Source of the DNA: Saccharicrinis sp.
Lineage (GTDB): Bacteria; Bacteroidota; Bacteroidia; Bacteroidales; Marinilabiliaceae
Direction: 5' to 3'
Assembly: GCA_965230625.1 (NCBI GenBank)
Contig: CBDDLL010000001.1
Location: 522,689 to 586,688 of the forward strand
DNA length: 64,000 nucleotides
Numbering within the stretch: position 1 is the stretch's first letter; every line of letters begins with the position of its first letter. The translations under genes and the position numbers were made by a program. Below, piece by piece: positions 2,874 to 17,482 of this stretch. The notes beneath the pieces were generated by a model that was given only the letters and a program-made list of their open reading frames with translations, had not been told where the DNA came from and did not search any database.

Positions 2874-3413
2874 TTCATCTTGAATATTTTGAAGGGTTAT
2901 TGATACATGAAGATATTGAAAGTATATCTTCTAAAATATCAACTGTTGGACTTGATTTAAGTCGATTTGATAAGAATGGTGTTCCATATGCTTCCATTGA
3001 AGATTTTATGTTACATGTTTCTTTATTTATAAGCGACCCAATTGTAGGAAATATAGTCTTAGGAGCAAGTGGAAGTGCATTGTGGGACGCAATTAAAATG
3101 TCCTCAATTTTAATATGGAGTAGAATTAAAGTAAGGCATTGGGACAGAAGATGAAAATATAAATAAACCACTTAATTTTGGATTACATGTATCAATAGAC
3201 AAAAACACAAAACTTGACTTAAAACTGGGCGGTGATTTAAGTGAAGAATTTGCATTAAAAGCTCTTGATAAGGCCATTGATTTGATAAAAACTACAAAAA
3301 AGAATGAGAACCCTGAGCCTGCTAAATTTTATACTACGAATTCTATTGGTAATTGGTGTGAATTGGATACTCTCGAAGAATTAAGAAAGAAAAGGAAGAA
3401 GAAAAAGAAATAA
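2852..3413 (+). pseudogene. Hypothetical gene interrupted by a frame change (open segments 2852-3154 and 3135-3413)
   Basis: A 100-codon segment ends at 3154. A different frame is stop-free for 93 codons (3135-3413, ending in a ...RKKRKKKKK tail) but has no usable start codon near its 5' end. Confidence 0.35.
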
Positions 3414-3426
3414 AAGAAACTATATT

Positions 3427-4392: not shown

Positions 4393-4666
4393 AAGCTGGT
4401 AACACTGTATATACAAAATGGGCGAGATAGTAGTAAATTCAAGGGGTGCAGCTCGCTTAAAATTTTCACGGGTTGATAAGTTTGAAGCCCGCAATCGCCC
4501 ACATTTGCATATACTTGCCGTTGTATGCAAAAAAGACAGCGGTACATGGAAAATTGGATTGATAAATTGAAATTATAAACAGATAGAAAAAGAGCATTGA
4601 TTGAAGGTTGGAGCAAGAAAAAATAGTTTTTGCCCGCCCGCTTCTGCCCTTCGGGACAGTTGGGAA

Positions 4667-4733
4667 GCCAACGCACATTGCACACATTTGCAAATCGCAC
4701 AGGCTGTCGCACAAACCAAAATTTGCAAAAGAG
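4667..4733. repeat. Intergenic repeat, R family, copy R1 (upstream of the STAND gene)
   Basis: Contains GCCAACGC, CACATTTGCAAAT and AAAATTTGCAAAAGAG blocks that recur at 12632-12698. Confidence 0.5.
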
Positions 4734-4773
4734 TGCAATTATCCACGCTTAAAGAAAAAATATATCACTAAGT

Positions 4774-7700
4774 ATGAAAACTCTCGATTCGTCACAATTG
4801 AACTGGAAAAGGTATTGGTGTAAACAAGATGAACTAGTTACACTTGATGATTCTGGATTTTTATTTGACCCTGAGACTAAAGAAACTTTTTATAAGAAAA
4901 CGGATGTTGTTCCTTACAGTGAAATTTCTAATTTAAATTGTTTAGTCTTACTAGGGGAGCCTGGTATTGGAAAATCTACAACGCTTCAAAATGAATTTTT
5001 TAATCATAAAAAGACGCAGAAACCTAATGAAATATGCCTTTTTAAAAATTTAAATGAGTATGGTGACGAGAATAGGTTAATAAAGGAAATCTTTAATGCA
5101 CAAGAATTTGATAAATGGCTAAAATCTGATAAAAAATTGTATTTGTACCTTGATAGTTTTGATGAATGTTTGCTTGAAATTAAAAGGTTATTTCAAATAC
5201 TGAAAAATCAGTTTAGCAAATACAAAGAGATTTCTTCACGGTTTTATCTTAGGATAACTTGTAGGACAGGATATTGGTCAGAATGTTTAACTGTCTTTTT
5301 TAATAATCTTTACGGAACAGTTAATGTTGGAACCTATGAATTAGCCCCAATAAAAAGAAGCGATATTGAAGAAGCAGCACAACAAGTAGGACTTAATTCC
5401 AGTAGTTTTATTGAGGAAATAATCACAAAGGAAATTCAACCCCTAGCAATCAATCCATTAACATTAGACTTATTATTTCAGGCTTACCTTCATTCAAACT
5501 CTTTTCCATCTTCAAAAGAGGAGTTATTCTATTCCGCTTGCAAAAGACTTTGCACCGAACCTAATTTTGAAAGGCAGTTTCTATATCAAGCTAATTGCTT
5601 ATCGCCAGAAAAAAGAATTGCTCTTGCAGCGAGAATAGCTGCCGTAATGGTTTTCTGTGATAAAAGAGTTGTTGATTTACGAAATAACTTCGGATTATCA
5701 GATGAAGCTATTTCTATTGACATTCTGCTTGAAGGTAAAGAATACACAGATAGTTTTGAATTTCAATTTTCACAACAAGATTTAATTGAAACTATAACGC
5801 AGACTTCGCTTTTTTCAAGTAGAGGGGATTTACAGTTTGGTTTTTCTCATCTTGCGTATTCAGAATTTTTAGCAGCAAAATTTATTTCAAATCATGGATT
5901 AGAAATTGAACAGATAAAATCTTTAATTACTCTATCCACAGATGAAGAAAATAAAATAATTCCTCAGATGAAGGGTGTTGCAGCTTGGATGAGTATGATT
6001 AACTCAAAAGTTGCTGAGGATACAATAAAAAATGACCCTCAAAATGTTCTTATTGGTGACTTGGATGTGTTAAGTCTTGAATATAAAGAAAAGCTTGTAA
6101 ACTCACTTTTGGAAAAATTAAGCAACAATACAATAGATGATGGAGATTGGGGTCTACATAAGCAATATAAAAAACTAAATCATCCGAACTTATCAGAACA
6201 GTTAAAACCTTACATTGTAAATAAAGATAGTTATTTCTTAGCACGAAGAGTAGCTATTGATATTGCTGAAGCCTGTAGGTTAACTGAATTAAACTCAAAT
6301 CTAATAGATTTAGCTTTAGATGAATCAGAGGATATCCATGCAAGAAGCAATGCAGTGCATGCACTAATTGAAACTGGCGATATTGAAACCCAAAAGAAGC
6401 TAATTCCGCTTGCTACATTACCTCAAGAGCTTGACAAAGATGATGATATAAAAGGATATTCACTGAGAGCACTTTGGCCAGAAATACTAACTACTTCAGA
6501 AGTCTTTGAGGTTTTAACAACCCCTAAAAGGTCAAATTACAGTGGTGGTTATGTATTTTTCTTGTATCTATTACATGATAGTATTACAAAAGATGATTTA
6601 GATAGCGGATTATCTTGGATTTTGGAGAATATTTCATCAAATAAGGATAACCATTATAAGTTTAATAATCTGGAAGATGTAATAATAAACCTTTCATGGG
6701 AAAATGTAAATTGTATAAAAGATAAGTCCTTATTTGCCAAAGTACTTTTACTTAGAATGCAAAAGTATCAAACAATTTTTCCTACCCCCCAAAGAATAGG
6801 GAAACAATGGAATTCTCTTGTCCTCGATAACAATAACAGACTTACCATTTTTAAAGAATTGATAGAAGTAATAAAGGATGAAGAGGTTCATTTTTTAACA
6901 CACAATGAGATAATAACTAAAGATAACTTTGAAGATATTACAGATATTTTCATCAAAACTGATAGTTCAAATAGCAAACTTAAAATTGCAAAGACCTTAA
7001 CCTATTTTCAATATTCTGAATTTAGTCATATTGATAAAATACTTATGCTTTGTCAAGAACATGAAGAATTTAAAAATGCATTTAGTCATTGGCTAAAGAC
7101 CGTTGAAATTGGTTCTGATGAGGCAAACAAACTTAAACAAGGTGTTGAACAAAGGAAAGAATGGGAGAAAAAATCAAAAGAAAGAAAACAACAAAAGGAT
7201 GCTAAGAAGATTGACATGCCTTTAAGGTTGTCTAATGACTTAGAAAATTTTGAAGAAAGCAGAAATGTTAGTTCTTGGTATCAATTATTTATGGATTTAA
7301 CTCTCACTGAAACAAGTACGCATTATGGTGACGAACTTAATTCAAGTGTATTGAATTTACCTGGCTGGGAGTATGTCGATGAAAATATAAAGGAAAGAAT
7401 TATTGACTCAGCGAAATACTATATTAACAATTTTGATGATAAAAAGTCTGAATGGTTTGGTACAAATACTTTTTATCGCCCTGCTACGGCTGGTTACAAA
7501 TCATTAATCTTGCTTTATAAACTAGACAAACAATTTATAGTAGACTTAACGAGTGAAACTTGGGCTAAATGGAATCATATTTTAATAGATTATCCAGAAT
7601 CTCATGGAATTGCAGGGAAAGATGAAACTTACATTGAACTTATATCAATTTCATTTCAAAATCATAAGCAAGGTATCATAAAGGTGATATTAGAAAAAAT

Positions 7701-8991
7701 TAATAAGGCTAATAGTGGCGATGATAATTACCTAACTTTCCTAAATAAGGTTGATGCATGCATGGATAAAGATTTTCAAGATGCTTTATTAGAGAAGCTA
7801 AAGGGTAGTGAACTACGTGCACAAGTTACAAACATCCTACTCTCTAAGCTACTTGAAAAGGGAAATACTAACGCTATCTCATACAATATTGAATTGTTTA
7901 AAAATTCTAATGGTAGTGATAAAGTATTATATGCAAAATCATTAGCTAGTTTTTGCGATGAAAAAACGTGGGAAATAATTATGGAAGCCATCAAATGCGA
8001 CAAAGATTTCGGAAAAGATTTTTTCTTCTCGTTTGTAGATACTTACGTTGTTGAAATGATACCTCTTCTTGAAAGGATTTCGGAAATTCAAAGTGCAGAT
8101 TTATTTCTTTGGTTGATTGATGAATTCCCTCGTGAAGAAGACCCTGTTTTTGAGGGAGCTCATATGGTTGGTGCACGTGAAAGTGTTGGGAATTTTAGAG
8201 ACCAGATTCTAAGGATTCTTACAGGCAAAGGCACTAAAGAATCCATATTGGCACTTGATAAAATTAAAGCAGCAAGGAATGATTTAAATATAGAATTTTA
8301 TCTTGTTGCTGCTAAAAAGAATTTCCGAGCAAATAATTGGGAGCCTCTTACTCCAAACGAGTTACTAACTCTAGCAAGTAATTCTAAAGCACGTGTTATT
8401 TTAAGTTCAGCTGATTTGATGAATTTAATTCTCGATTCATTAAGTCGACTAGAATTTTCTTTACAAGGAGCTAATTCATTATCAGAAGGACTTTGGAATA
8501 AGTTAAACAGTGGCAATTATACTCCTAAATCAGAAGAGTATATATCAGATTATATTAAGCAACATTTAGATAGAGAATTAAAATCAATAGGTATTTCAAG
8601 TTATCGAGAAGTTCAACTTAGAAAACCTAGGTCAAAAGATTTTGCTGATGGTAGAAAAGGAGAAATTACAGATATTTACGTGTCCTTTACCCATCCTAAA
8701 ACTAAAGAATCTTTTAATGTTATAATTGAAGTAAAAGGTTCAAATAATAAAGAAGTAAATACGAATATGAAAGCTCAGCTCTGTGATAGATATCTTGAAA
8801 CTGACCAATATAAATACGGCATTTATTTAGTTGCATGGTATAATTGCAAGGCTTACAAAAAACAAGTTAATAAAACTCAGCAATCTACTTTATTACAAGC
8901 TAGAAAACACTATAAAGAAATGGCCAGTAAATTAGATGGTGCTGAGAAAAGTATAAAATCTTTTGTTTTAGATTGCTCATTAAGAAATTGA
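4774..8991 (+). CDS. NACHT/STAND-type P-loop NTPase with helical-repeat middle region and C-terminal PD-(D/E)xK (restriction-endonuclease-fold) domain
   Basis: Walker A GEPGIGKST (aa 61-69) and NACHT-style Walker B LYLYLDSFDE (aa 122-131). HEAT-like helical repeats occur mid-protein. The C-terminus has the ordered motifs ...ITDIYVSF...VIIEVKGS...YGIYLVAWY, typical of a PD-(D/E)xK core. Confidence 0.7.
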   Translation: MKTLDSSQLNWKRYWCKQDELVTLDDSGFLFDPETKETFYKKTDVVPYSEISNLNCLVLLGEPGIGKSTTLQNEFFNHKKTQKPNEICLFKNLNEYGDENRLIKEIFNAQEFDKWLKSDKKLYLYLDSFDECLLEIKRLFQILKNQFSKYKEISSRFYLRITCRTGYWSECLTVFFNNLYGTVNVGTYELAPIKRSDIEEAAQQVGLNSSSFIEEIITKEIQPLAINPLTLDLLFQAYLHSNSFPSSKEELFYSACKRLCTEPNFERQFLYQANCLSPEKRIALAARIAAVMVFCDKRVVDLRNNFGLSDEAISIDILLEGKEYTDSFEFQFSQQDLIETITQTSLFSSRGDLQFGFSHLAYSEFLAAKFISNHGLEIEQIKSLITLSTDEENKIIPQMKGVAAWMSMINSKVAEDTIKNDPQNVLIGDLDVLSLEYKEKLVNSLLEKLSNNTIDDGDWGLHKQYKKLNHPNLSEQLKPYIVNKDSYFLARRVAIDIAEACRLTELNSNLIDLALDESEDIHARSNAVHALIETGDIETQKKLIPLATLPQELDKDDDIKGYSLRALWPEILTTSEVFEVLTTPKRSNYSGGYVFFLYLLHDSITKDDLDSGLSWILENISSNKDNHYKFNNLEDVIINLSWENVNCIKDKSLFAKVLLLRMQKYQTIFPTPQRIGKQWNSLVLDNNNRLTIFKELIEVIKDEEVHFLTHNEIITKDNFEDITDIFIKTDSSNSKLKIAKTLTYFQYSEFSHIDKILMLCQEHEEFKNAFSHWLKTVEIGSDEANKLKQGVEQRKEWEKKSKERKQQKDAKKIDMPLRLSNDLENFEESRNVSSWYQLFMDLTLTETSTHYGDELNSSVLNLPGWEYVDENIKERIIDSAKYYINNFDDKKSEWFGTNTFYRPATAGYKSLILLYKLDKQFIVDLTSETWAKWNHILIDYPESHGIAGKDETYIELISISFQNHKQGIIKVILEKINKANSGDDNYLTFLNKVDACMDKDFQDALLEKLKGSELRAQVTNILLSKLLEKGNTNAISYNIELFKNSNGSDKVLYAKSLASFCDEKTWEIIMEAIKCDKDFGKDFFFSFVDTYVVEMIPLLERISEIQSADLFLWLIDEFPREEDPVFEGAHMVGARESVGNFRDQILRILTGKGTKESILALDKIKAARNDLNIEFYLVAAKKNFRANNWEPLTPNELLTLASNSKARVILSSADLMNLILDSLSRLEFSLQGANSLSEGLWNKLNSGNYTPKSEEYISDYIKQHLDRELKSIGISSYREVQLRKPRSKDFADGRKGEITDIYVSFTHPKTKESFNVIIEVKGSNNKEVNTNMKAQLCDRYLETDQYKYGIYLVAWYNCKAYKKQVNKTQQSTLLQARKHYKEMASKLDGAEKSIKSFVLDCSLRN

Positions 8992-9002
8992 AAATGAAAA
9001 GT

Positions 9003-9032
9003 CAGCCCACACAGCCAAGCACATTTGCAATT
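9003..9032. repeat. Intergenic repeat, R family, copy R2 (30-mer CAGCCCACACAGCCAAGCACATTTGCAATT)
   Basis: Matches 12632-12661 at 29 of 30 positions, counted by hand. Confidence 0.8.
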
Positions 9033-9034
9033 TA

Positions 9035-9067
9035 TTTGAGACAATTCCAATGGGTAGCTTAAATTTG
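9035..9067 (+). promoter_or_regulatory. Candidate Bacteroidota sigma-A promoter (-33 TTTG / -7 TAnnTTTG) for the AEP-helicase operon
   Basis: TTTG at 9035-9038, a 21-nt spacer, then TAAATTTG at 9060-9067, 4 nt before the ATG at 9072. Confidence 0.3.
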
Positions 9068-9071
9068 TAGT

Positions 9072-11213
9072 ATGACAGATACCGCAATAAATATCGAATT
9101 ATATAAATCTCTTTTCAAGGGAAGAACCGATATTTATGCTACCCGATGGGAAAAAGAAGGTAGAAGTGGTTACATGCCAGCTTATAAAGTTGATTGGACA
9201 GATTATAACAAACACAAAGCCCAAGGTGGCACGTTTAAAGACTACAAAAATAAGGAATACCTGGCATTTGATAACAAAGCCATTGAAACCCATTTGTCAG
9301 GAAAAGAAACAAATGGTATTTATCCACTCTTAGAAGACAATACTTCATTTTTTATTGCAGTAGATTTCGACAAACAAAATTGGCAAGAAACTATAATCAG
9401 ACTTTATGAAGCTTGTCAAAAGCATGACCTACCTGCACATATTGAGCGTTCACGGTCTGGCAATGGAGGACATTTATGGATATTCTTTGAACAAGCGTTT
9501 CCTGCTGAACAAAGTCGGAAATTAATGTTTGAGTTGTTAAGACATTCAAATATTATATCTCATTTTGAGAAAGAACCAAGTTTCGATCGTTTATTTCCAA
9601 ATCAGGATTATCATTCAGGTAAAGGCATGGGAAATCTTATTGCCTTACCATTACAAGGCAAATCTTTAGAACAAGGTAACTCGTGTTTTATAAATCCAGA
9701 AACATTAGAACCATATCAAGACCAATGGACATATCTTGAAACTATTAAAAAGGTTCCAACCCAAAAATTAAAAGAACTTTACGAAGACCTTTTTAATACA
9801 AAACCACAGGAAGTTTTTGTTTCCACCTCTCAAAACGGTAAAACCAGTTATCATCTTGAAATTGTAATCAGCAATCAGATTTATCTGAAACGTGCACAAT
9901 TAAGTCAAAAGTTGATTGTGTTTTTACGAGAACAATTAAACTTTTATAATTCTGATTATCTGGCAAAGAAGAACCTAGGAAAAAGTGTCTTTAATACCGA
10001 GAAATTCTTCAAGTTAATTGAAGAATCAGAAAGTGAAGTAATGATACCAAGAGGATTTTCGGCAAGTTTGGTTCAATTTTGCAATAAAGAATCGATTCCG
10101 TATAAAATAATAGACAAAAGGGAAAAGAAAGAACCGATTGATTTTGATTCCAACATTGAGTTATTAGACCATCAGGAAATCGCTCTTGAACAGGTAAGAG
10201 AAAAGGATTTTGGTGTTATTGTGTCTCCACCAGGTTCTGGAAAAACAGTAATTGGACTTGAAGTTATATCGGAGAAACGACAACCAGCATTAATTATAGT
10301 ACACCGAAAACAATTATTTGACCAGTGGATTGAACGAATACAGGATTTTCTTAAGATTCCAAAGAAAGAAATCGGACAAATTGGGAACCAGAAAAAGAAG
10401 ATTGGTAAACATATAACCATCGCTATGATTCAATCTCTATCAAGGATTGAGGACTATTCTGAAATATCTAGTGCATTTGGAACAATTATTATCGATGAGT
10501 GTCACCATATTCCTGCAAAATCATTCCGTGAAGTAATTGTAAATTTCAATGCCTTTTATCTGTATGGTTTAACTGCTACTCCGAAACGGAAAAACAATGA
10601 CCAAAAACTGATTTTTATTTATATTGGAAATATTCTGCATCAAGTTAATCAGACTGATTATCTAGCTGAGAAAAATATAAAAACTGAAATAAACATAAAG
10701 GAAACTGAACTTTTCGCTCCATTTGATTATAAGATAGATAAATATGAAACCATTTCTCGGATTCTTGTTCATGATACTCAGCGAAACTCGTTGATATTAA
10801 AAGATATTGAAGAAAATGCAAGTCGCTTTAAAACTATCCTCATTTTATCTGAACGAAAAACCCATGTCGATATTCTAAATCTTTACTTAAAAGATAAATA
10901 TGAGACTATAACGATTCATGGAGAAGATTCTGAAAGTTCGAGAAAAAGTAAAATAGAACAAATTAAGCAAGGTCATTTTAAAATCGTAATTTCGACAGGT
11001 CAATATTTTGGAGAAGGCATTGACATAAGCAATCTGGAATGTCTATTTATTGTTTATCCATTTGCTTTTGAGGGTAAATTGATTCAATACATTGGCAGAA
11101 TTCAGCGTTCTGAAAATCCACCAGTTATATTTGATTATCGAGATTCCAAAATTGATTATTTTGAAAAGATGTTTAAACAGCGGAAACGCTATTACAAGAA
11201 ATTATTAAAGTAA
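9072..11213 (+). CDS. Archaeo-eukaryotic primase (AEP/PrimPol-like) domain fused to an SF2 (type III restriction Res-like, DEAH) helicase
   Basis: N-terminus carries AEP motif I FFIAVDFD (DxD, aa 98-100), motif II SGNGGHLWIFF and GNLIALPL. C-terminus carries Walker A SPPGSGKT, IIDECHH, GLTATP, GEGIDI and QYIGRIQR. Confidence 0.75.
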   Translation: MTDTAINIELYKSLFKGRTDIYATRWEKEGRSGYMPAYKVDWTDYNKHKAQGGTFKDYKNKEYLAFDNKAIETHLSGKETNGIYPLLEDNTSFFIAVDFDKQNWQETIIRLYEACQKHDLPAHIERSRSGNGGHLWIFFEQAFPAEQSRKLMFELLRHSNIISHFEKEPSFDRLFPNQDYHSGKGMGNLIALPLQGKSLEQGNSCFINPETLEPYQDQWTYLETIKKVPTQKLKELYEDLFNTKPQEVFVSTSQNGKTSYHLEIVISNQIYLKRAQLSQKLIVFLREQLNFYNSDYLAKKNLGKSVFNTEKFFKLIEESESEVMIPRGFSASLVQFCNKESIPYKIIDKREKKEPIDFDSNIELLDHQEIALEQVREKDFGVIVSPPGSGKTVIGLEVISEKRQPALIIVHRKQLFDQWIERIQDFLKIPKKEIGQIGNQKKKIGKHITIAMIQSLSRIEDYSEISSAFGTIIIDECHHIPAKSFREVIVNFNAFYLYGLTATPKRKNNDQKLIFIYIGNILHQVNQTDYLAEKNIKTEINIKETELFAPFDYKIDKYETISRILVHDTQRNSLILKDIEENASRFKTILILSERKTHVDILNLYLKDKYETITIHGEDSESSRKSKIEQIKQGHFKIVISTGQYFGEGIDISNLECLFIVYPFAFEGKLIQYIGRIQRSENPPVIFDYRDSKIDYFEKMFKQRKRYYKKLLK

Positions 11214-11215
11214 AT

Positions 11216-12547
11216 ATGGCAGAAAGTCAAAACATAGAATGGAAAGAAAGCTGGCGTGATGAATACCTGAAATGGATTTGTGGTTTTGCAAATGCACAAG
11301 GAGGTAAAATCTATATTGGCAAAAACGATAAAGGAGAAGTTGTTGGAATTGACAATGCTAAACGATTAATGGATGATTTGCCAAATAAGATTGTAACAAA
11401 TCTCGGGATAATCTGTGATATAAACCTATTAGCTGAAAATAACAAAGAAGTCATTGAAATAATTGTTGAGCCTTATCCAAATCCTGTAAATTATAAAGGA
11501 CAGTATCACTATAGAACTGGAAGTACTAAGCAAGAGTTAAAAGGAGCTGCGTTAGATAAATTCTTGCTTCAAAAGCATGGTAAAACATGGGATAGTGTAC
11601 CTGTTCCTAAAATTGCGATTGAAGACCTTGATGGTAATGCTTTTAATATTTTCAAGAAGAAAGCTGAAAAAAGTGGTCGTGTCGACGATGAAGTTTTAAA
11701 TGACTCAAACCAATCATTATTAGAAAACCTTGACTTAATTGAAGACGACTATATTACAAGAGCAGGAGTTTTATTATTCCACCCTAAACCTGACAAGTTA
11801 TTTACAGGTTCATACATCAAAATTGGTTTTTTTGTAACCGATGATGATTTGCGTTTTCAGGATGAAATCCATGGAAATGCATTCGACCAAATAGAAAAGA
11901 CACTCGACTTACTAAAGACAAAGTACTTGAAGGCAGAAATAAGATATGAAGGAATAAGCAGAGTTGAAGAATTTCCATTTCCAGCTCCTGCATTTCGAGA
12001 GGCAATTTTGAATGCCATTGCTCATAAAGATTATAGTAGCACGACTCCTATACAGATTAGTGTTTATGAGGATAAAATGATTATTTGGAATCAAGGTCAA
12101 TTACCTGAAAATTGGACTGTAGATAAGTTGTCTGAAAAACATCCATCTATGCCATTTAATCCATTGGTTTCAAATACACTATTCCGAAGTGGATACATTG
12201 AAGCTTGGGGGCGTGGCACAATCAATATGATAAATGAATGTGCAAAGCGAAATATTCCACGTCCAAGCTACAAATACGATTTTTCTGGATTTATTGTGGA
12301 GTTTAGAAAGTTCAGTAAGGATTACTTGGAGTCACTTGGATTAAGTGAAGCATTTATCAAAATCATCCTTTATGTGCAAGAAAAAGGACAAATAGGAAAT
12401 ACTGAAGTACAAGAGATTTGTGGTGTATCGAAACGAACTGCTTCTACTTATTTAGCAGAATTAGAGAAAGATTATTTGGATAAAAAAGGAGCTACAGGTA
12501 AGGGAACTCTTTACTCATTAAAGGGGCAACAAAGGGGCAGTTATTGA
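11216..12547 (+). CDS. AlbA_2 (Schlafen-type, 'divergent AAA') domain protein with HATPase_c_4-like region and C-terminal wHTH
   Basis: N-terminus ESQNIEWKESW...ICGFANAQGGKIYIGKNDKGEVVGI is the classic AlbA_2 opening. REAILNAIAHKDY and WGRGT motifs lie in the ATPase-like part. The start is 2 nt after the helicase stop. Confidence 0.75.
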   Translation: MAESQNIEWKESWRDEYLKWICGFANAQGGKIYIGKNDKGEVVGIDNAKRLMDDLPNKIVTNLGIICDINLLAENNKEVIEIIVEPYPNPVNYKGQYHYRTGSTKQELKGAALDKFLLQKHGKTWDSVPVPKIAIEDLDGNAFNIFKKKAEKSGRVDDEVLNDSNQSLLENLDLIEDDYITRAGVLLFHPKPDKLFTGSYIKIGFFVTDDDLRFQDEIHGNAFDQIEKTLDLLKTKYLKAEIRYEGISRVEEFPFPAPAFREAILNAIAHKDYSSTTPIQISVYEDKMIIWNQGQLPENWTVDKLSEKHPSMPFNPLVSNTLFRSGYIEAWGRGTINMINECAKRNIPRPSYKYDFSGFIVEFRKFSKDYLESLGLSEAFIKIILYVQEKGQIGNTEVQEICGVSKRTASTYLAELEKDYLDKKGATGKGTLYSLKGQQRGSY

Positions 12548-12631
12548 CTTTATTTAAATCTCAAACAATAGATTATCAGAATGTTGATTGAAATTTAAAG
12601 GGGAACTAAAGGGGCAATAAGATTAAATTGC

Positions 12632-12661
12632 CAGCCCACACAGCCAAGCACATTTACAATT
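12632..12661. repeat. Intergenic repeat, R family, copy R3
   Basis: CAGCCCACACAGCCAAGCACATTTACAATT has one mismatch to 9003-9032. It is followed by the AAAATTGCAAAAGAG block (12684-12698) shared with R1. Confidence 0.8.
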
Positions 12662-12819
12662 CACACAAGCCAACGCTTGACCTAAAATTGCAAAAGAGCT
12701 TGTCTGTCTGCCACCGCTTTTTTGCCGACCCTAAAAACTATTTTTTTCGGGAACAGTAGTGCTTCGAATGAGAGGATTTTAGATTGTGCTAGATTGATAA
12801 CTTATTGACAATGAATGAA

Positions 12820-12951
12820 GCCCAGCATACAACAATAAATATAAGGCATAGGGCAAAAAGTGCTATATTTGAGCTTAGTAACATTTAATAAAAATTGTAA
12901 GGGTTTGATAGGTTAGTGTTCCAAAGTGCCCTACGACCTCATATTCGTGCC
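12820..12951. repeat. Structured intergenic repeat, C family, copy C1 (interrupted by the IS; continues at 14642)
   Basis: Aligns by eye over ~130 nt with 19372-19500. Shared blocks are AATAAATATA, AGTGCTA.ATTTGAG, ATTTAATA, GATAGGTT, ATATTC and CCGTT. Confidence 0.6.
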
Positions 12952-14641
12952 GTCAGACTGTCTAAAAACCAAATTCACTGTTGAAAACGATTCATAAGTT
13001 GTGACATGGAAATTATCGTATGGCCCTGTTGTTTTGTATCTTATAGATATGAAATTCATACAAGGACAAAACAGGGAACAAACACATCTTTTTCCAATTT
13101 CTTTGGATCAGGCCATTGAACCAGACAATGAAGTGCGTATAATAGATTTGTTTGTAGATAGCCTTGATATTGGCAACATGGGTTTTGATGTTGGGTTTGT
13201 TGAAAACGGGAGGCCTGCGTATCATCTGTCCGACTTACTAAAACTCTACATTTATGGGTATATGAATCGCATCCGTTCGTCGCGACAGTTAGAAAAGGAA
13301 AGTAAACGTAATATTGAGGTGATGTGGTTAATACATTCACTTTCGCCCGATCACAATACCATCTCAAACTTCCGCAAAAACAACCCCAAAGCCATAAAAA
13401 AGGTATTTAGGGAAACAGTACGCATAGTCCGTAATTTCGAACTTATTGGCGGCAAATAACTGGCAGGCGATAGCACAAAGCTACGTGCACAGAACAGTAA
13501 AAAAAACAACTATAACCAAAAGAAAATAGACCGGCATATCGAATATATTGAGAACAAAATAGATGAACATAACAAGGCTATTGCGGAAAAAGATGGGGAT
13601 AAGCAGGAGCATAAAAAAGAAATAGAGAAACACGAAAACCGAAAAGAAGGCTATGAGCAGTTGGAGCAACAGTTAAAGCAATCCGGTCTGTCGCAAATAT
13701 CCACTTCCGACCCTGATAGTCGTCACATGATTACCCGTAACAATATAATGGAAGTAGCCTATAATGCCCAAACTACGGTTGACGACAAAAACAACCTACC
13801 GATAGATTACAAAGTGACCAATGCCAACGACTGCAAGGCCATGGAAAATATGCTTCAAAGAGCCAAAAGTATTCTGGGCACCAATAAATTTACGGCCTTG
13901 TACGATAAGGGATATCATACGGGATCGGAATTTGATATGGCGGATAAATTAGGTATAAAAACAATTGTAGCCATTCCCGGCGTGGCAGCTCAAGCTCCAG
14001 ACCCGGCATATAATGTCGAGCACTTTAAATATGATAATTTGGATGATTGTTACATTTGCCCCAGGGGTCACCGAATGATCATCACCGGAAAATTACACCA
14101 AGCCAAAACTTATCAATTTAAGCGGTACACTACTAAAGCATGCAAAAGTTGTGAGGATAAATATAAATGTAGTAAAGCAAAGTATGGTAAAGCCATACAG
14201 CGTAGCGAATATCAAGAGCTCATCAAGTTAAATAAGGATAGAGTAAATAATAACCAAAATTATTACAGGCGTCGACAGGCCATTGTCGAACACCCCTACG
14301 GCACAATCAAACGGCAATGGGGATTCAATTACATTATAACAAAGAAATTTATCCATCGAGCCGAAGCAGACCTTGGCCTGATAATGAATGCCTATAATCT
14401 AAGAAGGCTTATCAATATCATAGGAAAAGAGCAGCTGGTGAAATACCTGCAAAGTATAGTCTCTGCGTTGCTAAATCAAAACAGCCTAAATTGTTTCTTC
14501 TCGAATATTGTAAGCTATTTAATTATCAAAATAAATTATTATCATTATTTTCAGTTCGTAAATAAAACGGCAATAAGGAGCTAAAAACGGCATAAAAAAC
14601 TATGAATCATTAAATGTTTTTGAGTTTTTAGACAGACTGAC
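12952..14641 (+). mobile_element. IS1182-family insertion sequence (1690 bp)
   Basis: 18-bp terminal inverted repeats: GTCAGACTGTCTAAAAAC (12952-12969) against the reverse complement of 14624-14641, GTCAGTCTGTCTAAAAAC, with 1 mismatch. It encloses a DDE transposase reading frame. Confidence 0.8.
13049..14584 (+). pseudogene. IS1182-family transposase interrupted by a single in-frame TAA (13457-13459)
   Basis: ORFs 13001-13459 and 13661-14584 are in the same frame. The stretch 13460-13660 is stop-free and reads LAGDSTKLRAQNSKKNN.... The N-terminus MKFIQGQNREQTHLFP is typical of this family. Confidence 0.75.
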
Positions 14642-14717
14642 GTTGGGCATAATTTTGTCACATACATAACAGGCAGACACATAGTCTGATAAATACTAAT
14701 TATTATAATTTATTTAA

Positions 14718-15239
14718 ATGAAAACTTATTTTATCCTTATTGCTCTGTGTAGTATTTTTTTAATTGATTGTAATGCTCAAAAATGTGAAGTTACTGAAGA
14801 TCCGTTTACAAACGAAAAAGTAATATCATTTAACTGGAAAAATGGAATCGTTTTTTACGAATTAAAAAGTGATAAAATCAAATTTGGAATCACGTGTAAC
14901 TACAATGGTGATCGAGATGTAATTATTGAAAAAGGACATAAAGCATTTTTTAAGTTTGATAATGGAGAAACGATGGAGTTAACTACATGTGTTGATTCTC
15001 ATCCAGACACAAATATTAGTGCCTCTCAATATGGCGCTGCTGTATTTACATATTATACTTTCACATTTTCCCTATCAAAAGATCAATTAAATAAGCTAGC
15101 AGTTAATAAGACGACAGCAGTTAGGTATCCTGATACAAATGGTGAATATTTAGATGTCATTTTAAAAGGAAAGAGGAACAAGTATACTAAAGCGGTACTT
15201 GAAGGTGGACAATGCATTTTAAGTAATTTAATGAATTAA
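14718..15239 (+). CDS. Hypothetical secreted protein (173 aa)
   Basis: N-terminal signal peptide (MKTYFILIALCSIFLIDCNAQ). No family recognised. Confidence 0.5.
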   Translation: MKTYFILIALCSIFLIDCNAQKCEVTEDPFTNEKVISFNWKNGIVFYELKSDKIKFGITCNYNGDRDVIIEKGHKAFFKFDNGETMELTTCVDSHPDTNISASQYGAAVFTYYTFTFSLSKDQLNKLAVNKTTAVRYPDTNGEYLDVILKGKRNKYTKAVLEGGQCILSNLMN

Positions 15240-15645
15240 TACATTCATAATAAAACTATGCCCAATAAATAGGACTATGAGCGGTCTGTAAGACCAAGCG
15301 TGGTAGTCCATGTTGGACTACATCCCGGTTTCTATTTAACCTATGTACTTATCGACGCTTTTTTATATTCTGAAGTAGGTAGAAGGTGTTGTTAAGTGGT
15401 CTAAAAGAATTGTAAATATAAGGTAGAAAAAAGAAGAGATCAAGTGCTTTTTGCGAAGATAGGGTACTGTATTTTTTTAGAGCGAAGGTGATTGGATATA
15501 GAAAGCAGATTAAATACATTTTGTTGTTTGTTCTGAAAAAGTACATTTGCTACATTTGACCAAAGCTATCCCGGAGGGATTTAGTTCAACAATTAATAAA
15601 AAATACTACCTGTCATTAGATTAATATTTGTAATAAAAAAATAAA

Positions 15646-16092
15646 GTGAAAGTTAAAAAGCTCATATGGACTTTAGTTGGACTTGCGATTTTATCCTTAG
15701 TTTTTCTTTGGTTATATTTTGTTGTAGGTTTTAGTTCAACTTATCTGCCACTTGAAAAATATTACAGTAATATTACTCAAAATGAAATAAAGCAAAGACT
15801 TGAAATACTAGATTCAACGCAAGGCTTTAATGTCAATATTACTGATACAACAGGACAATACCCAAAAGAATATAATGTGTATTTTAAAATTACAGATAAC
15901 AATAATTGTGAATACCATTTAAAATTTCATCTAGATAAATCATTAATTCATAAAGAGCAGACTGAAATATCCCTATTAGGAGTATTTGACAGAGACAAGA
16001 ATATTGGAGGTTATAGTAAATTAGACTCTAAATATATTATTCATCTTATTGACTGTTTTGAAAAGGAAGTACTTCCAAGAATAAATAACTAA
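15646..16092 (+). CDS. Hypothetical membrane-anchored protein (148 aa, GTG start)
   Basis: One N-terminal TM helix (LIWTLVGLAILSLVFLWLYFVVGF). No family recognised. Confidence 0.4.
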   Translation: MKVKKLIWTLVGLAILSLVFLWLYFVVGFSSTYLPLEKYYSNITQNEIKQRLEILDSTQGFNVNITDTTGQYPKEYNVYFKITDNNNCEYHLKFHLDKSLIHKEQTEISLLGVFDRDKNIGGYSKLDSKYIIHLIDCFEKEVLPRINN

Positions 16093-16357
16093 TGCCAATA
16101 ACTAAGCGTCCTGCCTGTTTGTAAAACAGAAGCTGGACGCAGTGTTGACGAAAACCGGGAAAAAGTCTCTGATATGTTATGGAGATTGATATATTTTTAT
16201 TGAGGTCTTAGTGAGATGCTTTTAAAGTATAGTTTAAGTAAAAGGTGTACTGATTATAATAGAACTTTCAAAAAAAAAGGATTTATAGTCTTTTCTGTCA
16301 TGTCATTTGGACTTATTTTTCTGTATAGCACATAGCTATTCTATTCACCCATGGGTG

Positions 16358-17482
16358 TTATTTTAAATCTATCATATAATCAGCTCCAAGAGGAACTACT
16401 TTATTAGGAGGTCCCCTGATATCGAACCGTGCAATGATAACCAGGTCTCCAACTTTGCAACAAGGACATTTGTTGTGCCTTAAAGGTTCTCGATGATGGA
16501 TATTCACTTTACCCAGCTGGGTTTCTATTATTGCTAATACTTTACGCTTAACAGCAGAAGCCAAAATTCCATAATGCCTGATACGCACAAAACCTTTGGG
16601 TAATATGTGCAGGGCAAAACGCTTTATAAAGTCATGGCTACTTAAAGTGAGCTTATACTTTTGGCCACCCTTTCTGTAATCCTTGGCTTCAAAAGTCACC
16701 TTTTGGTTTTCTATATTCTTGATACGGTGATTTGATATTGCGATTTTATGGGTATACCTGCCAAGGTATTCAATAACTTGTGAGGGACCATAAAAAGGGT
16801 GCTTGCAATAGATAACCCATTTCTTTTTAAACAGTTGTTTGTACAAAGCTTCCAGTTGTGGCCATTCTTTTCTAAGAGATGCTATAAACTTTGCCCTAAA
16901 CACCTTTGACATAGTCTTAACCGGGAAAAGAAATTTATCTTTTCCCCTGGCATTTTTCCATTGGTTAGAAGAAGTAATTCCGCCACCAGGTACAATACAG
17001 TGCAGGTGCGGGTGTAACCATAGGTTTTGTCCCCATGTGTGTAATATGGAAACCATGCCAGTTTTTGCACCCAAAAACCTGTGATTAGCAGCAAAGCCCT
17101 GGATTACCTGCCAACTGACTTTAAACAGTAAGTTATAAAGTTTATCTGGCATAAAAACTGCGAGTTTATTGAGTTCACAGGGCAAGGTAAATACTATATG
17201 ATAGTAAGTCGTATTTAGCAGTTCTTCTCCGCATTTGCGTATCCATAGCTCCTTTTTATGCCCCTGGCATTTGGGACAATGACGGTTACGGCAACTATTG
17301 TAACTAATATGCAGTTTATGGCATTGAGGATTGGTGCATTGGTCAACATGGCCGCCCATTAGGTAAGTGCGGCAGATTTCAATGGCATACAATGTTCTTA
17401 GTTTCCATTTGTTAAGAACCAACTTGTGTAGCCTATGATGTTCTTGCTGTAGCACCTGTGCTACTTCAAAGGCTGGTTTCAT
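16358..17482 (-). CDS. IS91-family transposase (zinc-binding N-terminal domain + Y2 HUH transposase)
   Basis: Cys-rich N-terminus (CTNPQCHKLHISYNSCRNRHCPKCQ), an HTWGQNLWLHPHLHCIVPGGG HUH-like segment, and YLGRYTHKIAISNHR with the catalytic Tyr region. Confidence 0.8.
   Translation of the reverse strand: MKPAFEVAQVLQQEHHRLHKLVLNKWKLRTLYAIEICRTYLMGGHVDQCTNPQCHKLHISYNSCRNRHCPKCQGHKKELWIRKCGEELLNTTYYHIVFTLPCELNKLAVFMPDKLYNLLFKVSWQVIQGFAANHRFLGAKTGMVSILHTWGQNLWLHPHLHCIVPGGGITSSNQWKNARGKDKFLFPVKTMSKVFRAKFIASLRKEWPQLEALYKQLFKKKWVIYCKHPFYGPSQVIEYLGRYTHKIAISNHRIKNIENQKVTFEAKDYRKGGQKYKLTLSSHDFIKRFALHILPKGFVRIRHYGILASAVKRKVLAIIETQLGKVNIHHREPLRHNKCPCCKVGDLVIIARFDIRGPPNKVVPLGADYMIDLK

What the first reader, a model, noticed from the sequence alone, without database searches (positions are those of the whole stretch)
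9072..12547. Translationally coupled AEP-primase::SF2-helicase and AlbA_2/Schlafen-type ATPase operon
A single polypeptide combines an archaeo-eukaryotic primase-polymerase fold (DxD in AVDFD, SGNGGHLW, GNLIALPL) with a Res/DEAH-type SF2 helicase (GSGKT, DECH, TATP, QYIGRIQR). This is not the SF3/SF4 replicative helicase usually fused to primases. The next ORF starts 2 nt after its stop and encodes an AlbA_2 (Schlafen-core) + HATPase_c_4 + wHTH protein. The pair has its own candidate promoter and is delimited by the 30-mer repeat on both sides, so it behaves as a discrete module. It could prime or extend on invading nucleic acid, or provide sensor-coupled remodelling. The function is unknown to me.
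Basis: partly seen in the sequence, partly recalled or inferred. Interest (0 to 1): 0.7.

Follow-up and report, generated by a model that had tools for sequence, protein, structure and literature searches.

The report
IEE-like polymerase–helicase plus Schlafen tRNase operon
Both genes belong to known families: the first is a relative of the E. coli "IS-excision enhancer" and the second is a bacterial Schlafen-type tRNA nuclease. What is new is that they recur as a tight but optional pair in Bacteroidota defence islands, and that the flanking "30-mer" is part of an undescribed hairpin element marking the ends of such gene blocks.

Summary
In detail: ORF1 (9072-11213, 713 aa) and ORF2 (11216-12547, 443 aa) are 2 nt apart, all cited motifs are present, and a 30-mer flanks the pair.

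ORF1 is not an orphan. It is a full-length member of the IEE family (Z1568-like AEP + SF2 ATPase; Pfam AEP-TOTE). It is 32% identical end to end to E. coli O157 IEE, and all eight functional residues are invariant in 82 sequences.

ORF2 is a "Schlatpase"-HTH: a prokaryotic Schlafen tRNase with a GHKL ATPase and wHTH, with its nuclease and ATP motifs intact.

- **Pairing, ORF1 side:** 35 of 68 related loci have or had an ORF2-type gene directly downstream.
- **Pairing, ORF2 side:** only 12 of 69 ORF2 relatives follow an IEE-like gene. The rest follow R-M, helicase or ATPase genes, or stand alone.
- **What moves:** homology to non-IEE loci begins exactly at the ORF2 start codon.
- **The 30-mer:** it is one arm of a ~130-nt hairpin element with strong covariation, not in Rfam, that ends co-directional gene blocks in related loci.
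- **Excluded:** no TPR-OB or TBP genes, CRISPR or phage context.

Both genes are known kinds. The operon and the boundary element are new variants. Whether the two proteins cooperate is unproven.

The parts
9072..11213 (+). ORF1, 713 aa: IEE-family protein (Z1568-like AEP/PrimPol domain fused to an SF2 DNA-dependent ATPase)
   Evidence: Pfam AEP-TOTE 1.7e-86, ResIII, Helicase_C. BLASTP against the E. coli IEE homologue: 32% identity over the full length, E 3e-122. At least 7931 relatives with E <= 1e-10, and the best 120 share the same architecture.
9090..9776 (+). AEP (primase-polymerase) domain, aa 7-235. Metal ligands D98, D100, D172; nucleotide-binding S127 and H134; Y84
   Evidence: Pfam match covers profile positions 2-229 of 230. 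Residues equivalent to IEE D142, D144, D216, S171, H178 and Y128 are invariant in 81-82 of 82 sequences (residue roles from PMC9943667).
10155..11111 (+). SF2 helicase-like ATPase core, aa 362-680. Motif I K391, motif II DECH 475-478, motif III TATP 501, motif VI arginine finger R676
   Evidence: ResIII and Helicase_C. The best solved relatives are archaeal XPB/Rad25 (4.9e-23). K391 and R676 are equivalent to IEE K451 and R735.
11216..12547 (+). ORF2, 443 aa: Schlatpase-HTH (Schlafen nuclease + GHKL ATPase + winged HTH)
   Evidence: Pfam SLFN_AlbA_2, HATPase_c_4, HTH_24. PADLOC match to the N-terminal part of SLFN-pAgo, 6.4e-23. Architecture described in PMC13056530 and bioRxiv 10.64898/2026.05.29.728809.
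11222..11539 (+). Schlafen (AlbA_2) nuclease domain, aa 3-108. Catalytic motif E3-x4-E8-x-K10 and Schlafen box CGFAN
   Evidence: The sequence ESQNIEWK matches Ex4(E/D)xK. It is conserved in all six ORF2 lineages. Motif definition.
11978..12301 (+). GHKL (Bergerat-fold) ATPase region, aa ~255-362, with N-box REAILNAIAH and GRGT box
   Evidence: Pfam HATPase_c_4 covers aa 277-362. The N-box E and N are conserved in all lineages. They correspond to the Mg/gamma-phosphate ligands E314 and N318 of RzAgo.
12356..12472 (+). C-terminal winged helix-turn-helix, aa 381-419
   Evidence: Pfam HTH_24, 2.6e-5. The divergent homologue in L026 also hits MarR and LexA-type HTH models.
12628..12765 (-). Full copy of the conserved hairpin element (E3), starting 81 nt after the ORF2 stop. 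The second '30-mer' (12632-12661) is its arm
   Evidence: Covariance model 134 bits, E 3e-35. Minus-strand fold -43.9 kcal/mol, z -2.3. It is 88% identical to copies behind ORF2-type genes whose coding DNA is 72-77% identical.
9003..9032 (.). Truncated half copy of the element (one arm only), 12 nt after the NACHT stop and 40 nt before ORF1. This is the first '30-mer'
   Evidence: Identical to the element arm in L169, L086 and L087. It has no partner arm and folds no better than shuffles. It lies outside the DNA shared with related loci, which starts at ~9060-9064.
4665..4781 (-). Another full copy of the element (E1), between the 321-aa ORF and the NACHT gene
   Evidence: Covariance model 50.5 bits, E 4e-11. 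It has the same long hairpin with changed outer-stem sequence.
9060..9067 (+). TAAATTTG, a Bacteroidetes -7-like promoter box 4 nt before the ORF1 ATG (candidate only)
   Evidence: Pattern match. Untested. The homology with related loci begins here.
4774..8991 (+). Neighbouring single-gene block: a 1405-aa NACHT/STAND protein, EruA-like. Context only, not part of the operon
   Evidence: NCBIfam antiphage_EruA 6.7e-77, below the curated cutoff. Absent from all related loci.
12951..14642 (+). Degenerate IS1182-family element inserted just downstream of the module's conserved 3' flank
   Evidence: 19-nt terminal inverted repeats. NCBIfam transpos_IS1182 on both split ORFs. L169 shows the uninterrupted site: its homology ends at 12956.

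Best explanation
This is a co-transcribed two-gene block in a small defence/mobile-DNA islet (~3.4-18.3 kb of the window) of a Bacteroidota chromosome.

**Gene 1** is an IEE-family enzyme, with an AEP/PrimPol-type DNA polymerase domain fused to an SF2 DNA-dependent ATPase. By homology with E. coli O157 IEE it should do three things:
- bind primer-template or 3'-tailed DNA;
- carry out Mn-dependent, slippage-prone DNA synthesis;
- join or template-switch at microhomologies.

It would thereby abort or reverse reactions of mobile DNA, as IEE does when it enhances transposase-dependent IS excision.

**Gene 2** is a Schlatpase-HTH. ATP binding by its GHKL domain should drive oligomerisation that assembles an active Schlafen nuclease. 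This nuclease cuts tRNA and arrests translation (abortive infection).

**Origin of the pair.** Gene 2, together with a conserved hairpin element downstream, is a promoter-less unit found appended directly behind many different genes: R-M, helicase, ATPase and IEE-like. In this clade it became fixed behind the IEE-like gene, so its expression is coupled to gene 1.

**Most likely working model.** This is a layered module. Gene 1 acts on the invading or transposing DNA. Gene 2 is a plug-in effector or second line. It is possibly licensed by DNA structures or products that gene 1 makes, but it does not depend on gene 1 for its chemistry.

**Shown here:** identities, intact active sites, operon conservation, modularity and the boundary element.

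**Inferred:** all activities, and any cross-talk between the two proteins.
For: **ORF1 identity.**
- Pfam AEP-TOTE 1.7e-86 plus ResIII and Helicase_C.
- Collinear 32% identity, E 3e-122, to an E. coli homologue. That homologue is 96.5% nucleotide-identical to the 786-aa O157:H7 gene.
- IEE biochemistry comes from PMC9943667.
- The eight IEE functional residues are invariant in 81-82 of 82 sequences.

**ORF2 identity.**
- Pfam and PADLOC hits.
- Ex4ExK, the Schlafen box and the GHKL N-box are conserved in six lineages.
- The mechanism of the Schlatpase module comes from the SLFN-pAgo preprint. Defence by bacterial Schlafens comes from PMC13056530.

**Operon conservation.**
- The gap is -8 to +4 nt in 27 genome loci and 12 metagenome loci.
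- 35 of 68 loci have or had an ORF2-type gene downstream.
- 18 of 19 loci in the window's own ORF1 clade are paired.
- Partial co-divergence: Mantel r 0.61, with 0 of 2000 permutations as high.
- IEE-like is the commonest partner of ORF2 relatives (12 loci).

**Modularity.**
- Homology to non-IEE loci begins exactly at the ORF2 start codon.
- Other tight partners are HsdR, HsdS, a C5 methyltransferase, an HNH nuclease, a DndE-HerA-like ATPase and a Shango-like helicase.
- Blocks bounded by the element contain exactly IEE+ORF2 in five loci.

**Context.** NACHT, RhuM, AbiEii, R-M, integrases and STAND NTPases.
Against: - No activity was tested. ORF1 is only 32% identical to the one characterised member, and IS-excision enhancement has been shown only in E. 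coli.
- The window's IS elements are IS1182 and IS91 family. They are not among the IS3, IS1 or IS30 families for which I recall IEE effects being reported (Kusumoto 2011, not held here).
- Each gene occurs without the other in half or more of cases. 33 of 68 IEE-like loci lack ORF2. 57 of 69 ORF2 relatives lack IEE. ORF2 has decayed in 6 loci where ORF1 is intact.
- All ten proteobacterial, Bacillota and E. coli O157 loci examined have stand-alone IEE homologues.
- The two closest ORF2 relatives in the metagenome scan with upstream sequence (82% and 70% identity) have other partners.
- These facts fit two independent genes sharing a transcript just as well.
Confidence: 0.6

Rival explanations
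1. Obligate sensor-effector system. The IEE-like protein is the nucleic-acid sensor: its SF2 motor and AEP domain engage foreign or transposition-derived DNA. It directly licenses the Schlatpase tRNase, by contact or through a DNA product bound by the wHTH. Neither gene protects alone in this clade.
For: - The tight junction is conserved across many loci and across six swapped ORF2 lineages.
- The first ~100 nt of ORF2 co-conserve with the ORF1 3' end at ~90%.
- Each is the other's commonest partner.
- In fused relatives (SLFN-pAgo) a DNA-sensing module licenses the same Schlatpase.
- HisKinase-type Schlafens tested alone in E. coli gave no protection.
Against: - ORF2-type genes occur alone between two elements (L106, L129) and behind at least six other kinds of gene.
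- ORF1 persists intact where ORF2 has decayed.
- E. coli IEE works without such a partner.
- The negative E. coli tests covered very few genes and phages.
Confidence: 0.25
2. Two unrelated stand-alone genes. An IEE-type genome-maintenance enzyme and an autonomous single-gene Schlafen defence system are adjacent only because promoter-less Schlatpase units insert behind whatever gene ends a transcription unit in defence islands.
For: - The reciprocal test gives 17%.
- The homology boundary lies exactly at the ORF2 ATG.
- ORF2 has many alternative partners.
- At least 10 gain/loss events are needed on the ORF1 tree.
- Decayed ORF2 copies exist, as does a relic ORF2 without IEE (L172).
Against: - 18 of 19 loci in the window's clade keep the pair, even though ORF2 alleles were replaced.
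- The enrichment of IEE-like among partners suggests selection for this combination rather than random placement.
Confidence: 0.35
3. Replication module of a mobile element. ORF1 would be a primase-helicase replicase and ORF2 its DNA-binding regulator.
For: - AEP-helicase fusions are typical replicases of plasmids and phages (general knowledge).
- 95-98 plasmid records carry full-length homologues.
- IS elements and recombinases lie nearby.
Against: - The helicase is SF2 XPB/RadD-like, and IEE has ATPase activity but no unwinding activity.
- No full-length homologue exists in 50,697 phage records or in IMG/VR.
- On plasmids the gene sits in accessory regions next to TA, Abi, IS and R-M genes, not at replicons.
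- The E. coli island already has its own YfjI-type replication gene.
- The ORF2 nuclease motif is conserved, which a mere regulator would not need.
Confidence: 0.03
4. Canonical TOTE conflict system (TPR, OB, TBP, Effector), or a CRISPR-associated PrimPol used in spacer acquisition.
For: - The Pfam and RefSeq names ('TOTE conflict system AEP domain').
- The PADLOC model 'PrimPol, CAS associated', 4e-70.
- The solved CAPP structures are the closest AEP relatives in the PDB (7e-11).
Against: - No TPR-OB, CSD or TBP gene lies within ~20 kb in the window.
- None appears among 128 neighbours of 33 related loci or among the block cargo.
- There is no CRISPR array.
- None of the 25 window ORFs scanned between 319 and 37262 hits a Cas family.
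- The NCBIfam CAPP score is 93, against a cutoff of 200.
Confidence: 0.03

Closest known systems
IEE, the IS-excision enhancer of E. coli O157:H7 (ECs1305/Z1568; Z1568-like AEP family; Pfam PF22548 AEP-TOTE)
   Same: - Same two-domain architecture and collinear alignment over the full length (32% identity, E 3e-122).
- All catalytic and nucleotide-binding residues of both domains are conserved.
- Horizontally spread, and located in variable islands rich in IS elements and recombinases.
   Different: - ORF1 is 713 aa against 786 aa, lacking IEE's ~44-residue N-terminal extension.
- It comes from a Bacteroidota clade 65-93% identical within itself but only ~30% identical to proteobacterial members.
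- In this clade it is frequently followed by a Schlafen gene, or preceded by RhuM and type I R-M genes. The E. coli and plasmid homologues stand alone.
- Neighbouring IS families differ: IS1182 and IS91 here, IS629 in E. coli. Activity is untested.
Schlatpase-HTH / pSlfn 'HisKinase-HTH' class of prokaryotic Schlafens; the Schlatpase module of SLFN-pAgo (RzAgo)
   Same: - SLFN_AlbA_2 with Ex4ExK and a Schlafen box.
- A GHKL ATPase with the Mg/phosphate-binding E and N.
- A short C-terminal HTH.
- Defence-island location. PADLOC aligns aa 15-358 to the N-terminal part of SLFN-pAgo.
   Different: - It has no fused sensor such as pAgo, NACHT, Ig-like or DUF262. Instead it is encoded 2 nt behind an IEE-like gene.
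- No stand-alone Schlatpase-HTH has yet been shown to protect. The HisKinase-type genes tested in E. coli were negative.
TOTE conflict systems (TPR, OB, TBP, Effector; Aravind, Iyer and Burroughs 2022, as cited in PMC12458937)
   Same: The AEP domain family carries the TOTE name. The context is biological conflict.
   Different: The defining TPR-OB and TBP components are absent here and in all sampled relatives. The source paper is not held, so its exact definition of the AEP-containing variants could not be read.
Integron gene cassettes with attC sites (including defence cassettes of Vibrio and mobile integrons)
   Same: - Promoter-less gene units are followed by a conserved imperfect hairpin in fixed orientation.
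- Structure is conserved more than sequence.
- Wobble bias points to the strand complementary to the coding strand.
- Blocks are arranged in series, with mostly defence cargo.
   Different: - There is no integron integrase, attI or Pc next to the array. The only IntI/XerA-like recombinase is 4.7 kb away, is paired with an IS91 transposase, and scores below cutoff.
- No RYYYAAC/GTTRRRY core boxes were seen by eye.
- Blocks are multi-gene and large.
- Some cargo is housekeeping-like.
- Mobility of the blocks was inferred only from homology breakpoints.
Human SLFN11 and PRIMPOL in replication stress
   Same: A Schlafen tRNase and a PrimPol-type AEP act on the same kind of DNA problem (ssDNA at stalled or gapped replication) (abstracts of PMC12904793 and PMC12696100).
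   Different: The resemblance is in logic only. The ATPase domains differ, the proteins are not orthologous as a pair, and no interaction was tested here.

Membership tests
IEE / Z1568-like AEP-SF2 family (PF22548 AEP-TOTE + SF2) | N-terminal AEP domain of the Z1568-like/AEP-TOTE type | tested here: met
   Pfam PF22548, E 1.7e-86, 290 bits against a cutoff of 27, profile positions 2-229 of 230.
IEE / Z1568-like AEP-SF2 family (PF22548 AEP-TOTE + SF2) | AEP catalytic triad (motif A DxD, motif C D), motif B histidine, and Tyr in place of the ribose-sensing His | tested here: met
   D98, D100, D172, H134, S127 and Y84 align with IEE D142, D144, D216, H178, S171 and Y128. They are invariant in 81-82 of 82 sequences (residue roles).
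IEE / Z1568-like AEP-SF2 family (PF22548 AEP-TOTE + SF2) | C-terminal SF2 helicase-like domain with motif I Lys, motif II DExH and a motif VI Arg finger, collinear with IEE | tested here: met
   K391, DECH 475-478 and R676 are present. The BLASTP alignment covers residues 8-711 of 713.
IEE / Z1568-like AEP-SF2 family (PF22548 AEP-TOTE + SF2) | Enhances transposase-dependent IS excision; Mn-dependent polymerase and MMEJ activity | not testable with these tools
   Needs biochemistry and genetics. It has been shown only for E. coli IEE.
Schlatpase-HTH / prokaryotic Schlafen (pSlfn HisKinase-HTH) | SLFN_AlbA_2 domain with the Ex4(E/D)xK nuclease motif and a Schlafen box | tested here: met
   Pfam 6.1e-16. 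The motif E3-SQNI-E8-W-K10 and the box CGFAN are conserved in six lineages.
Schlatpase-HTH / prokaryotic Schlafen (pSlfn HisKinase-HTH) | GHKL ATPase (PF13749) with the ATP/Mg-binding N-box, and a C-terminal HTH | tested here: met
   HATPase_c_4 1.8e-17 and HTH_24 2.6e-5. The N-box REAILNAIAH is conserved.
Schlatpase-HTH / prokaryotic Schlafen (pSlfn HisKinase-HTH) | ATP-driven oligomerisation, tRNA cleavage and phage defence | not testable with these tools
   Shown for RzAgo and RorSlfn5 only.
TOTE conflict system | TPR-OB (cold-shock domain) fusion gene in the same locus | tested here: not met
   No TPR or CSD family was found in window ORFs from 319 to 19331. None was among the 25 commonest families of 128 neighbours in 33 loci, nor in the block cargo. 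The only TPR-bearing protein (32766-36122) lies 20 kb away and is a STAND-like ATPase.
TOTE conflict system | TBP-domain gene in the same locus | tested here: not met
   Same scans, with no TBP family hit.
CRISPR-associated primase-polymerase (CAPP) | Linked cas1/cas2 (or an RT-Cas1 fusion) and a CRISPR array | tested here: not met
   No arrays in 64 kb. None of the scanned window ORFs between 319 and 37262 hits a Cas family. NCBIfam PrimPol_Msp scores 93 bits against a cutoff of 200.
Replicative primase-helicase of phages and plasmids | AEP fused to an SF3/SF4/SF6 hexameric helicase, located in a replication module of a phage or plasmid | tested here: not met
   The helicase is SF2. There is no full-length phage or viral homologue. 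On plasmids the gene sits in accessory regions.
Integron cassette array (for the boundary element) | Integron integrase with attI and Pc adjacent to the array | tested here: not met
   The only tyrosine recombinase (17479-18252, minus strand) scores 176 bits against a cutoff of 265 for the integron-integrase model. It overlaps an IS91 transposase gene.
Integron cassette array (for the boundary element) | A 3' hairpin site with conserved structure, fixed orientation and bottom-strand bias | tested here: inconclusive
   The hairpin, its orientation and the strand bias are present. The attC core boxes were not seen by eye, and no attC model was available to run.

The most novel reading that the evidence does not exclude
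The IEE-like PrimPol-helicase is the DNA sensor of a two-component immune system that licenses a Schlafen tRNase. This would be a prokaryotic counterpart of the human PRIMPOL-SLFN11 axis. In addition, these blocks are mobile, promoter-less cassettes exchanged through a previously undescribed attC-like hairpin recombination site that organises defence islands in Bacteroidota.
Probability: 0.12. Interest if true: 0.85.

Novelty: new variant of a known kind. Interest (0 to 1): 0.45.

Why it matters
- **IEE biology.** IEE has been studied almost only as an E. coli O157 curiosity that removes IS elements. In Bacteroidota the same enzyme family sits inside defence islands, next to R-M, RhuM, NACHT and pAgo-like genes, and is often translationally juxtaposed to a Schlafen tRNase. 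This supports the view that IEE-type PrimPol-ATPases are general anti-mobile-DNA factors.
- **A testable pair.** The operon offers a concrete two-gene construct for phage, plasmid and transposition assays.
- **Stand-alone Schlatpase-HTH genes.** These are the commonest bacterial Schlafens and have no demonstrated function. A possible reason is that they are plug-in units expressed behind DNA translocases.
- **A new non-coding element.** The covarying ~130-nt hairpin element at the ends of these gene blocks is not in Rfam. Its role is open: terminator, antisense RNA or recombination site. It may explain how such blocks are shuffled.

Tried and rejected
- **Replication-module reading.** Rejected: no phage or IMG/VR homologues, and plasmid copies lie in accessory regions.
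- **Canonical TOTE system.** Rejected for lack of TPR-OB and TBP genes. The defining paper (Aravind et al. 2022) and Iyer et al. 2005 are not held.
- **CRISPR-associated PrimPol.** Rejected.
- **The 30-mer as a private att-like duplication or tRNA-derived att site.** Rejected. It is not found within 6 mismatches in the 80 genome loci and there is no nearby tRNA gene. It then proved to be an arm of a widespread element.
- **A small convergent protein gene downstream of ORF2.** Rejected: stops occur in all frames in the window, and the 'small ORFs' in other loci are not homologous as proteins.
- **A known RNA family.** None was found at E <= 1.
- **Source organism.** It could not be identified. 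The exact protein look-up gave no contig or name.
- **The 30-mer in viral contigs.** No match.
- **Literature on the pairing or the element.** Nothing was found.
- **Structure prediction.** Not run, because profile E-values and the published AlphaFold-based analysis of IEE made it redundant. A complex prediction was not possible with the tools.

Full report
**1. Observation.**

The window holds ORF1 at 9072-11213 (+, 713 aa) and ORF2 at 11216-12547 (+, 443 aa). They are separated by two bases: AAG TAA at ATG.

Pfam assigns these domains:
- ORF1: an AEP-TOTE domain (aa 7-235, E 1.7e-86, full profile), ResIII (362-506) and Helicase_C (582-680).
- ORF2: SLFN_AlbA_2 (3-108), HATPase_c_4 (277-362) and HTH_24 (381-419).

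The 30-mer direct repeat is real: 9003-9032 and 12632-12661, 29/30 identical, with none expected by chance. The 'own promoter' is only a motif. TAAATTTG at 9060 resembles the Bacteroidetes -7 box. Sigma-70-like matches are not enriched over shuffles.

**2. What ORF1 is.**

The family is very large. At least 7931 clusters score E <= 1e-10, and the best 120 all have the same ~712-aa architecture. RefSeq names members 'TOTE conflict system archaeo-eukaryotic primase domain-containing protein' or 'DEAD/DEAH box helicase'.

Literature search led to the E. coli O157 IS-excision enhancer, IEE. It is a 786-aa protein made of a Z1568-like AEP domain and an SF2 helicase-like domain (PMC9943667).

- ORF1 aligns end to end with an E. 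coli homologue: 32% identity, E 3e-122.
- That homologue is 96.5% nucleotide-identical to the 786-aa O157:H7 gene, which lies in an integrase/AlpA/YfjI island full of IS elements.
- The IEE residues assigned to catalysis and nucleotide binding are D142, D144, D216, H178, S171, Y128, K451 and R735. They correspond to ORF1 D98, D100, D172, H134, S127, Y84, K391 and R676. All are invariant in 81-82 of 82 aligned family members.

ORF1 is therefore a bona fide IEE-family protein.

Published IEE properties:
- end joining of 3' overhangs with >= 4 bp of microhomology, which needs both domains;
- DNA-dependent ATPase activity without unwinding;
- in vivo, transposase-dependent enhancement of IS excision.

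The closest solved helicase relatives are archaeal XPB/Rad25. The closest solved AEP relatives are CRISPR-associated PrimPols.

**3. What ORF2 is.**

ORF2 has the 'HisKinase-HTH' architecture, which accounts for 19.2% of 5,930 prokaryotic Schlafens (PMC13056530). A 2026 preprint names the SLFN+GHKL supradomain 'Schlatpase'. It occurs in 58.6% of 103,533 prokaryotic SLFN proteins, mostly with a short C-terminal HTH.

[quoted passage not shown] This assembles the nuclease, and target recognition then licenses tRNA cleavage and abortive infection.

ORF2 carries the nuclease motif (E3-x4-E8-x-K10), the Schlafen box (CGFAN) and the GHKL N-box (REAILNAIAH). All three are conserved in the six ORF2 lineages found. 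The HisKinase-type Schlafens tested alone in E. coli did not protect.

**4. Is the pair a unit?**

*From the ORF1 side.* I examined 80 genome loci with ORF1 relatives of 65-93% identity, mostly Bacteroidota. Of the 68 with enough downstream sequence, 29 have an intact ORF2-type gene directly downstream, 6 have a decayed one and 33 have none. Gaps are -8 to +4 nt.

On an ORF1 tree the pairing is clustered. Basal branches lack it, while 18 of 19 loci in the window's clade have it. At least 10 gain/loss events are needed.

ORF1 and ORF2 partly co-diverge (Mantel r 0.61, 0 of 2000 permutations as high). Even so, ORF1s that are 79-93% identical carry at least six ORF2 lineages that are 23-88% identical. 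At DNA level, identity to L001, L003 and L005 stays near 90% through the first ~100 nt of ORF2 and then falls to 40-60%.

*From the ORF2 side.* Of the 69 close ORF2 relatives from metagenomes with upstream sequence, only 12 have an IEE-like gene upstream. This is still the commonest partner. The other tight partners are:
- type I HsdR or HsdS;
- a C5 methyltransferase;
- an HNH nuclease;
- a DndE-HerA-like ATPase;
- a TerB/BrxD-like/DEAD-helicase trio, which resembles Shango from my own knowledge.

Members of ORF2's own >= 90% cluster again follow a 713-aa AEP-TOTE helicase (L169, L170). A 151-aa relic survives elsewhere without one. Homology between the window and the non-IEE loci starts exactly at the ORF2 start codon.

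*Wider IEE family.* Distant IEE homologues on plasmids and in E. coli stand alone among TA, Abi, IS, R-M and recombinase genes.

*Conclusion.* ORF2 is a promoter-less plug-in unit that became fixed behind the IEE-like gene in this clade. Functional cooperation is possible but not shown.

**5. The 30-mer.**

L169 is 92.7% identical to the window from 9064 to 12956. The end point is exactly where the terminal repeat of a degenerate IS1182 element begins (12951-14642). L169 has only the downstream 30-mer.

Mapping the flanks onto all loci showed that a ~110-nt segment starting with the 30-mer follows ORF2-type genes even where no IEE gene is present. It is 82-96% identical, more conserved than the genes themselves.

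Evidence that it is a structured element:
- The alignment shows a long imperfect hairpin whose inner stem covaries: TTTGCA/TGCAAA against TCCCGA/TCGGGA.
- A covariance model finds 66 confident copies, all in the same orientation relative to the flanking genes.
- 70 of 74 copies are intergenic, with a median distance of 73 nt after the stop of the preceding gene.
- On the model-fitted alignment the 16-pair helix is 96% paired. 15 of the 16 pairs show compensatory changes. There are 271 double-change cells against 72 +/- 7 in shuffles. Slid registers pair only 27-49%.
- G.U cells outnumber A.C cells 29 to 8 on the strand complementary to the genes.
- The window copy folds at -43.9 kcal/mol on that strand (z -2.3), against -27.7 on the other.
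- There is no Rfam match and no intact small ORF.

The window has full copies at 12628-12765 and 4665-4781. The copy at 9003-9032 is a non-folding half. The islet therefore reads: element | NACHT | half-element | IEE-Schlatpase | element.

Between consecutive elements lie compact co-directional blocks:
- exactly IEE+ORF2 in five loci;
- ORF2 alone in two loci;
- larger blocks ending in IEE+ORF2.

Cargo is mostly defence-type: type IIG and type I R-M, Vsr, TIR, AAA_13, IrrE-HTH and NACHT. It also includes a MacB/FtsX permease and a TonB-receptor block.

The element's role is open. It could be an operon-end terminator or insulator, an antisense RNA, or a recombination site. No integron integrase or attC core was found, and no description was found in the literature.

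**6. Context and exclusions.**

The islet spans about 3.4-18.3 kb:
- an unknown 321-aa ORF;
- an EruA-like NACHT protein;
- the pair;
- the IS1182 element;
- two small unknown ORFs;
- an IS91 transposase with a XerA/IntI-like recombinase.

Housekeeping genes lie on either side.

Three things are absent:
- TPR-OB and TBP genes, here or in relatives;
- CRISPR arrays;
- full-length homologues in phages or viral contigs.

**7. Verdict.**

Both genes belong to described families, so the AEP-SF2 fusion is not new.

Three things are new as far as the searchable literature shows:
- the recurrent but optional IEE-Schlatpase operon in Bacteroidota;
- the behaviour of Schlatpase-HTH genes as appended units;
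- the covarying hairpin element that bounds these blocks.

The most likely mechanism is a layered anti-mobile-DNA module. An IEE-type polymerase/ATPase acts on DNA intermediates, and an ATP-gated tRNase serves as a coupled effector. Direct licensing is unproven.

Noticed in passing
window 12628-12765 (-), 4665-4781 (-), half copy 9003-9032; also L086:7437-7569, L091:2008-2140, L140:7439-7574 and about 60 more: A ~110-135-nt hairpin-forming intergenic element family, absent from Rfam, sits at the ends of co-directional gene blocks. It has strong covariation and fixed orientation, and its wobble bias favours the strand complementary to the genes.
   Followed up: yes
window 12951-14642: A degenerate IS1182-family element with 19-nt terminal inverted repeats and a split transposase (13001-13459 and 13661-14584). 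L169 shows the empty site. Related IS1182 copies or solo ends lie next to the IEE-Schlatpase pair in L042 (solo ends at 9667 and 14055 bracket the pair), L107, L048 and L096.
   Followed up: partly
window 4774-8991: A 1405-aa NACHT/STAND protein related to the antiphage proteins EruA and HyoA (NCBIfam 6.7e-77, below cutoff). It forms its own single-gene block between two copies of the element. By eye its C-terminus looks like a PD-(D/E)xK nuclease (DIYV...IIEVKG).
   Followed up: partly
window 16358-17482 (-) and 17479-18252 (-): An IS91-family Y2 transposase gene overlaps by 4 nt a 257-aa tyrosine recombinase gene. The recombinase's best models are XerA and integron integrase, both below cutoff.
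   Followed up: partly
L046, L047, L056, L060, L061, L067 (ORF1 about 68-70% identical): In a basal subclade the IEE-like gene follows a RhuM-family gene by about 14-41 nt. L047 has a full type I HsdR gene, and L080 has a similarly sized gene, upstream. The IEE-like gene is thus the last cistron of an hsdR-rhuM-iee arrangement.
   Followed up: partly
L083 (Paracoccus pAMI8) and L168 (Dinoroseobacter pDSHI03): In Rhodobacterales plasmids the IEE homologue converges on a trio of tyrosine recombinase genes (a recombinase-in-trio element).
   Followed up: no
L147, L148: The order is reversed: type I HsdR, then an ORF2-type Schlatpase-HTH gene, then an IEE-like gene (53% identical to ORF1) 175 nt downstream.
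   Followed up: partly
window 12517-12550 vs 12594-12629: A short imperfect repeat of the ORF2 3' end (TTAAAGGGGCAAC-AAAGGGGCA) recurs just before the element. The motif GGGGCAAT also precedes the element in L152, L163, L169 and L172, so it may belong to the element's left flank.
   Followed up: partly
window 11126-11133: A second Bacteroidetes -7-like box (TATATTTG) lies inside the ORF1 3' end, 90 nt before ORF2. This is the most conserved stretch of DNA in the module (~90-94% to L001, L003 and L005). It is a possible internal promoter for ORF2.
   Followed up: no
L006:6981-9964: Two genes (487 and 507 aa) upstream of the IEE-like gene, in the same element-bounded block, look like a short pAgo system by eye. 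A TIR domain hit appeared in the cargo scan, but the 507-aa protein has no Pfam hit.
   Followed up: no
L172:6001-6456, L173, L174, L175: A 151-aa C-terminal relic (GHKL + HTH) of an ORF2 gene more than 90% identical to the window's is still followed by the hairpin element. It lies next to an ISAzo13-type transposase and has no IEE gene.
   Followed up: partly
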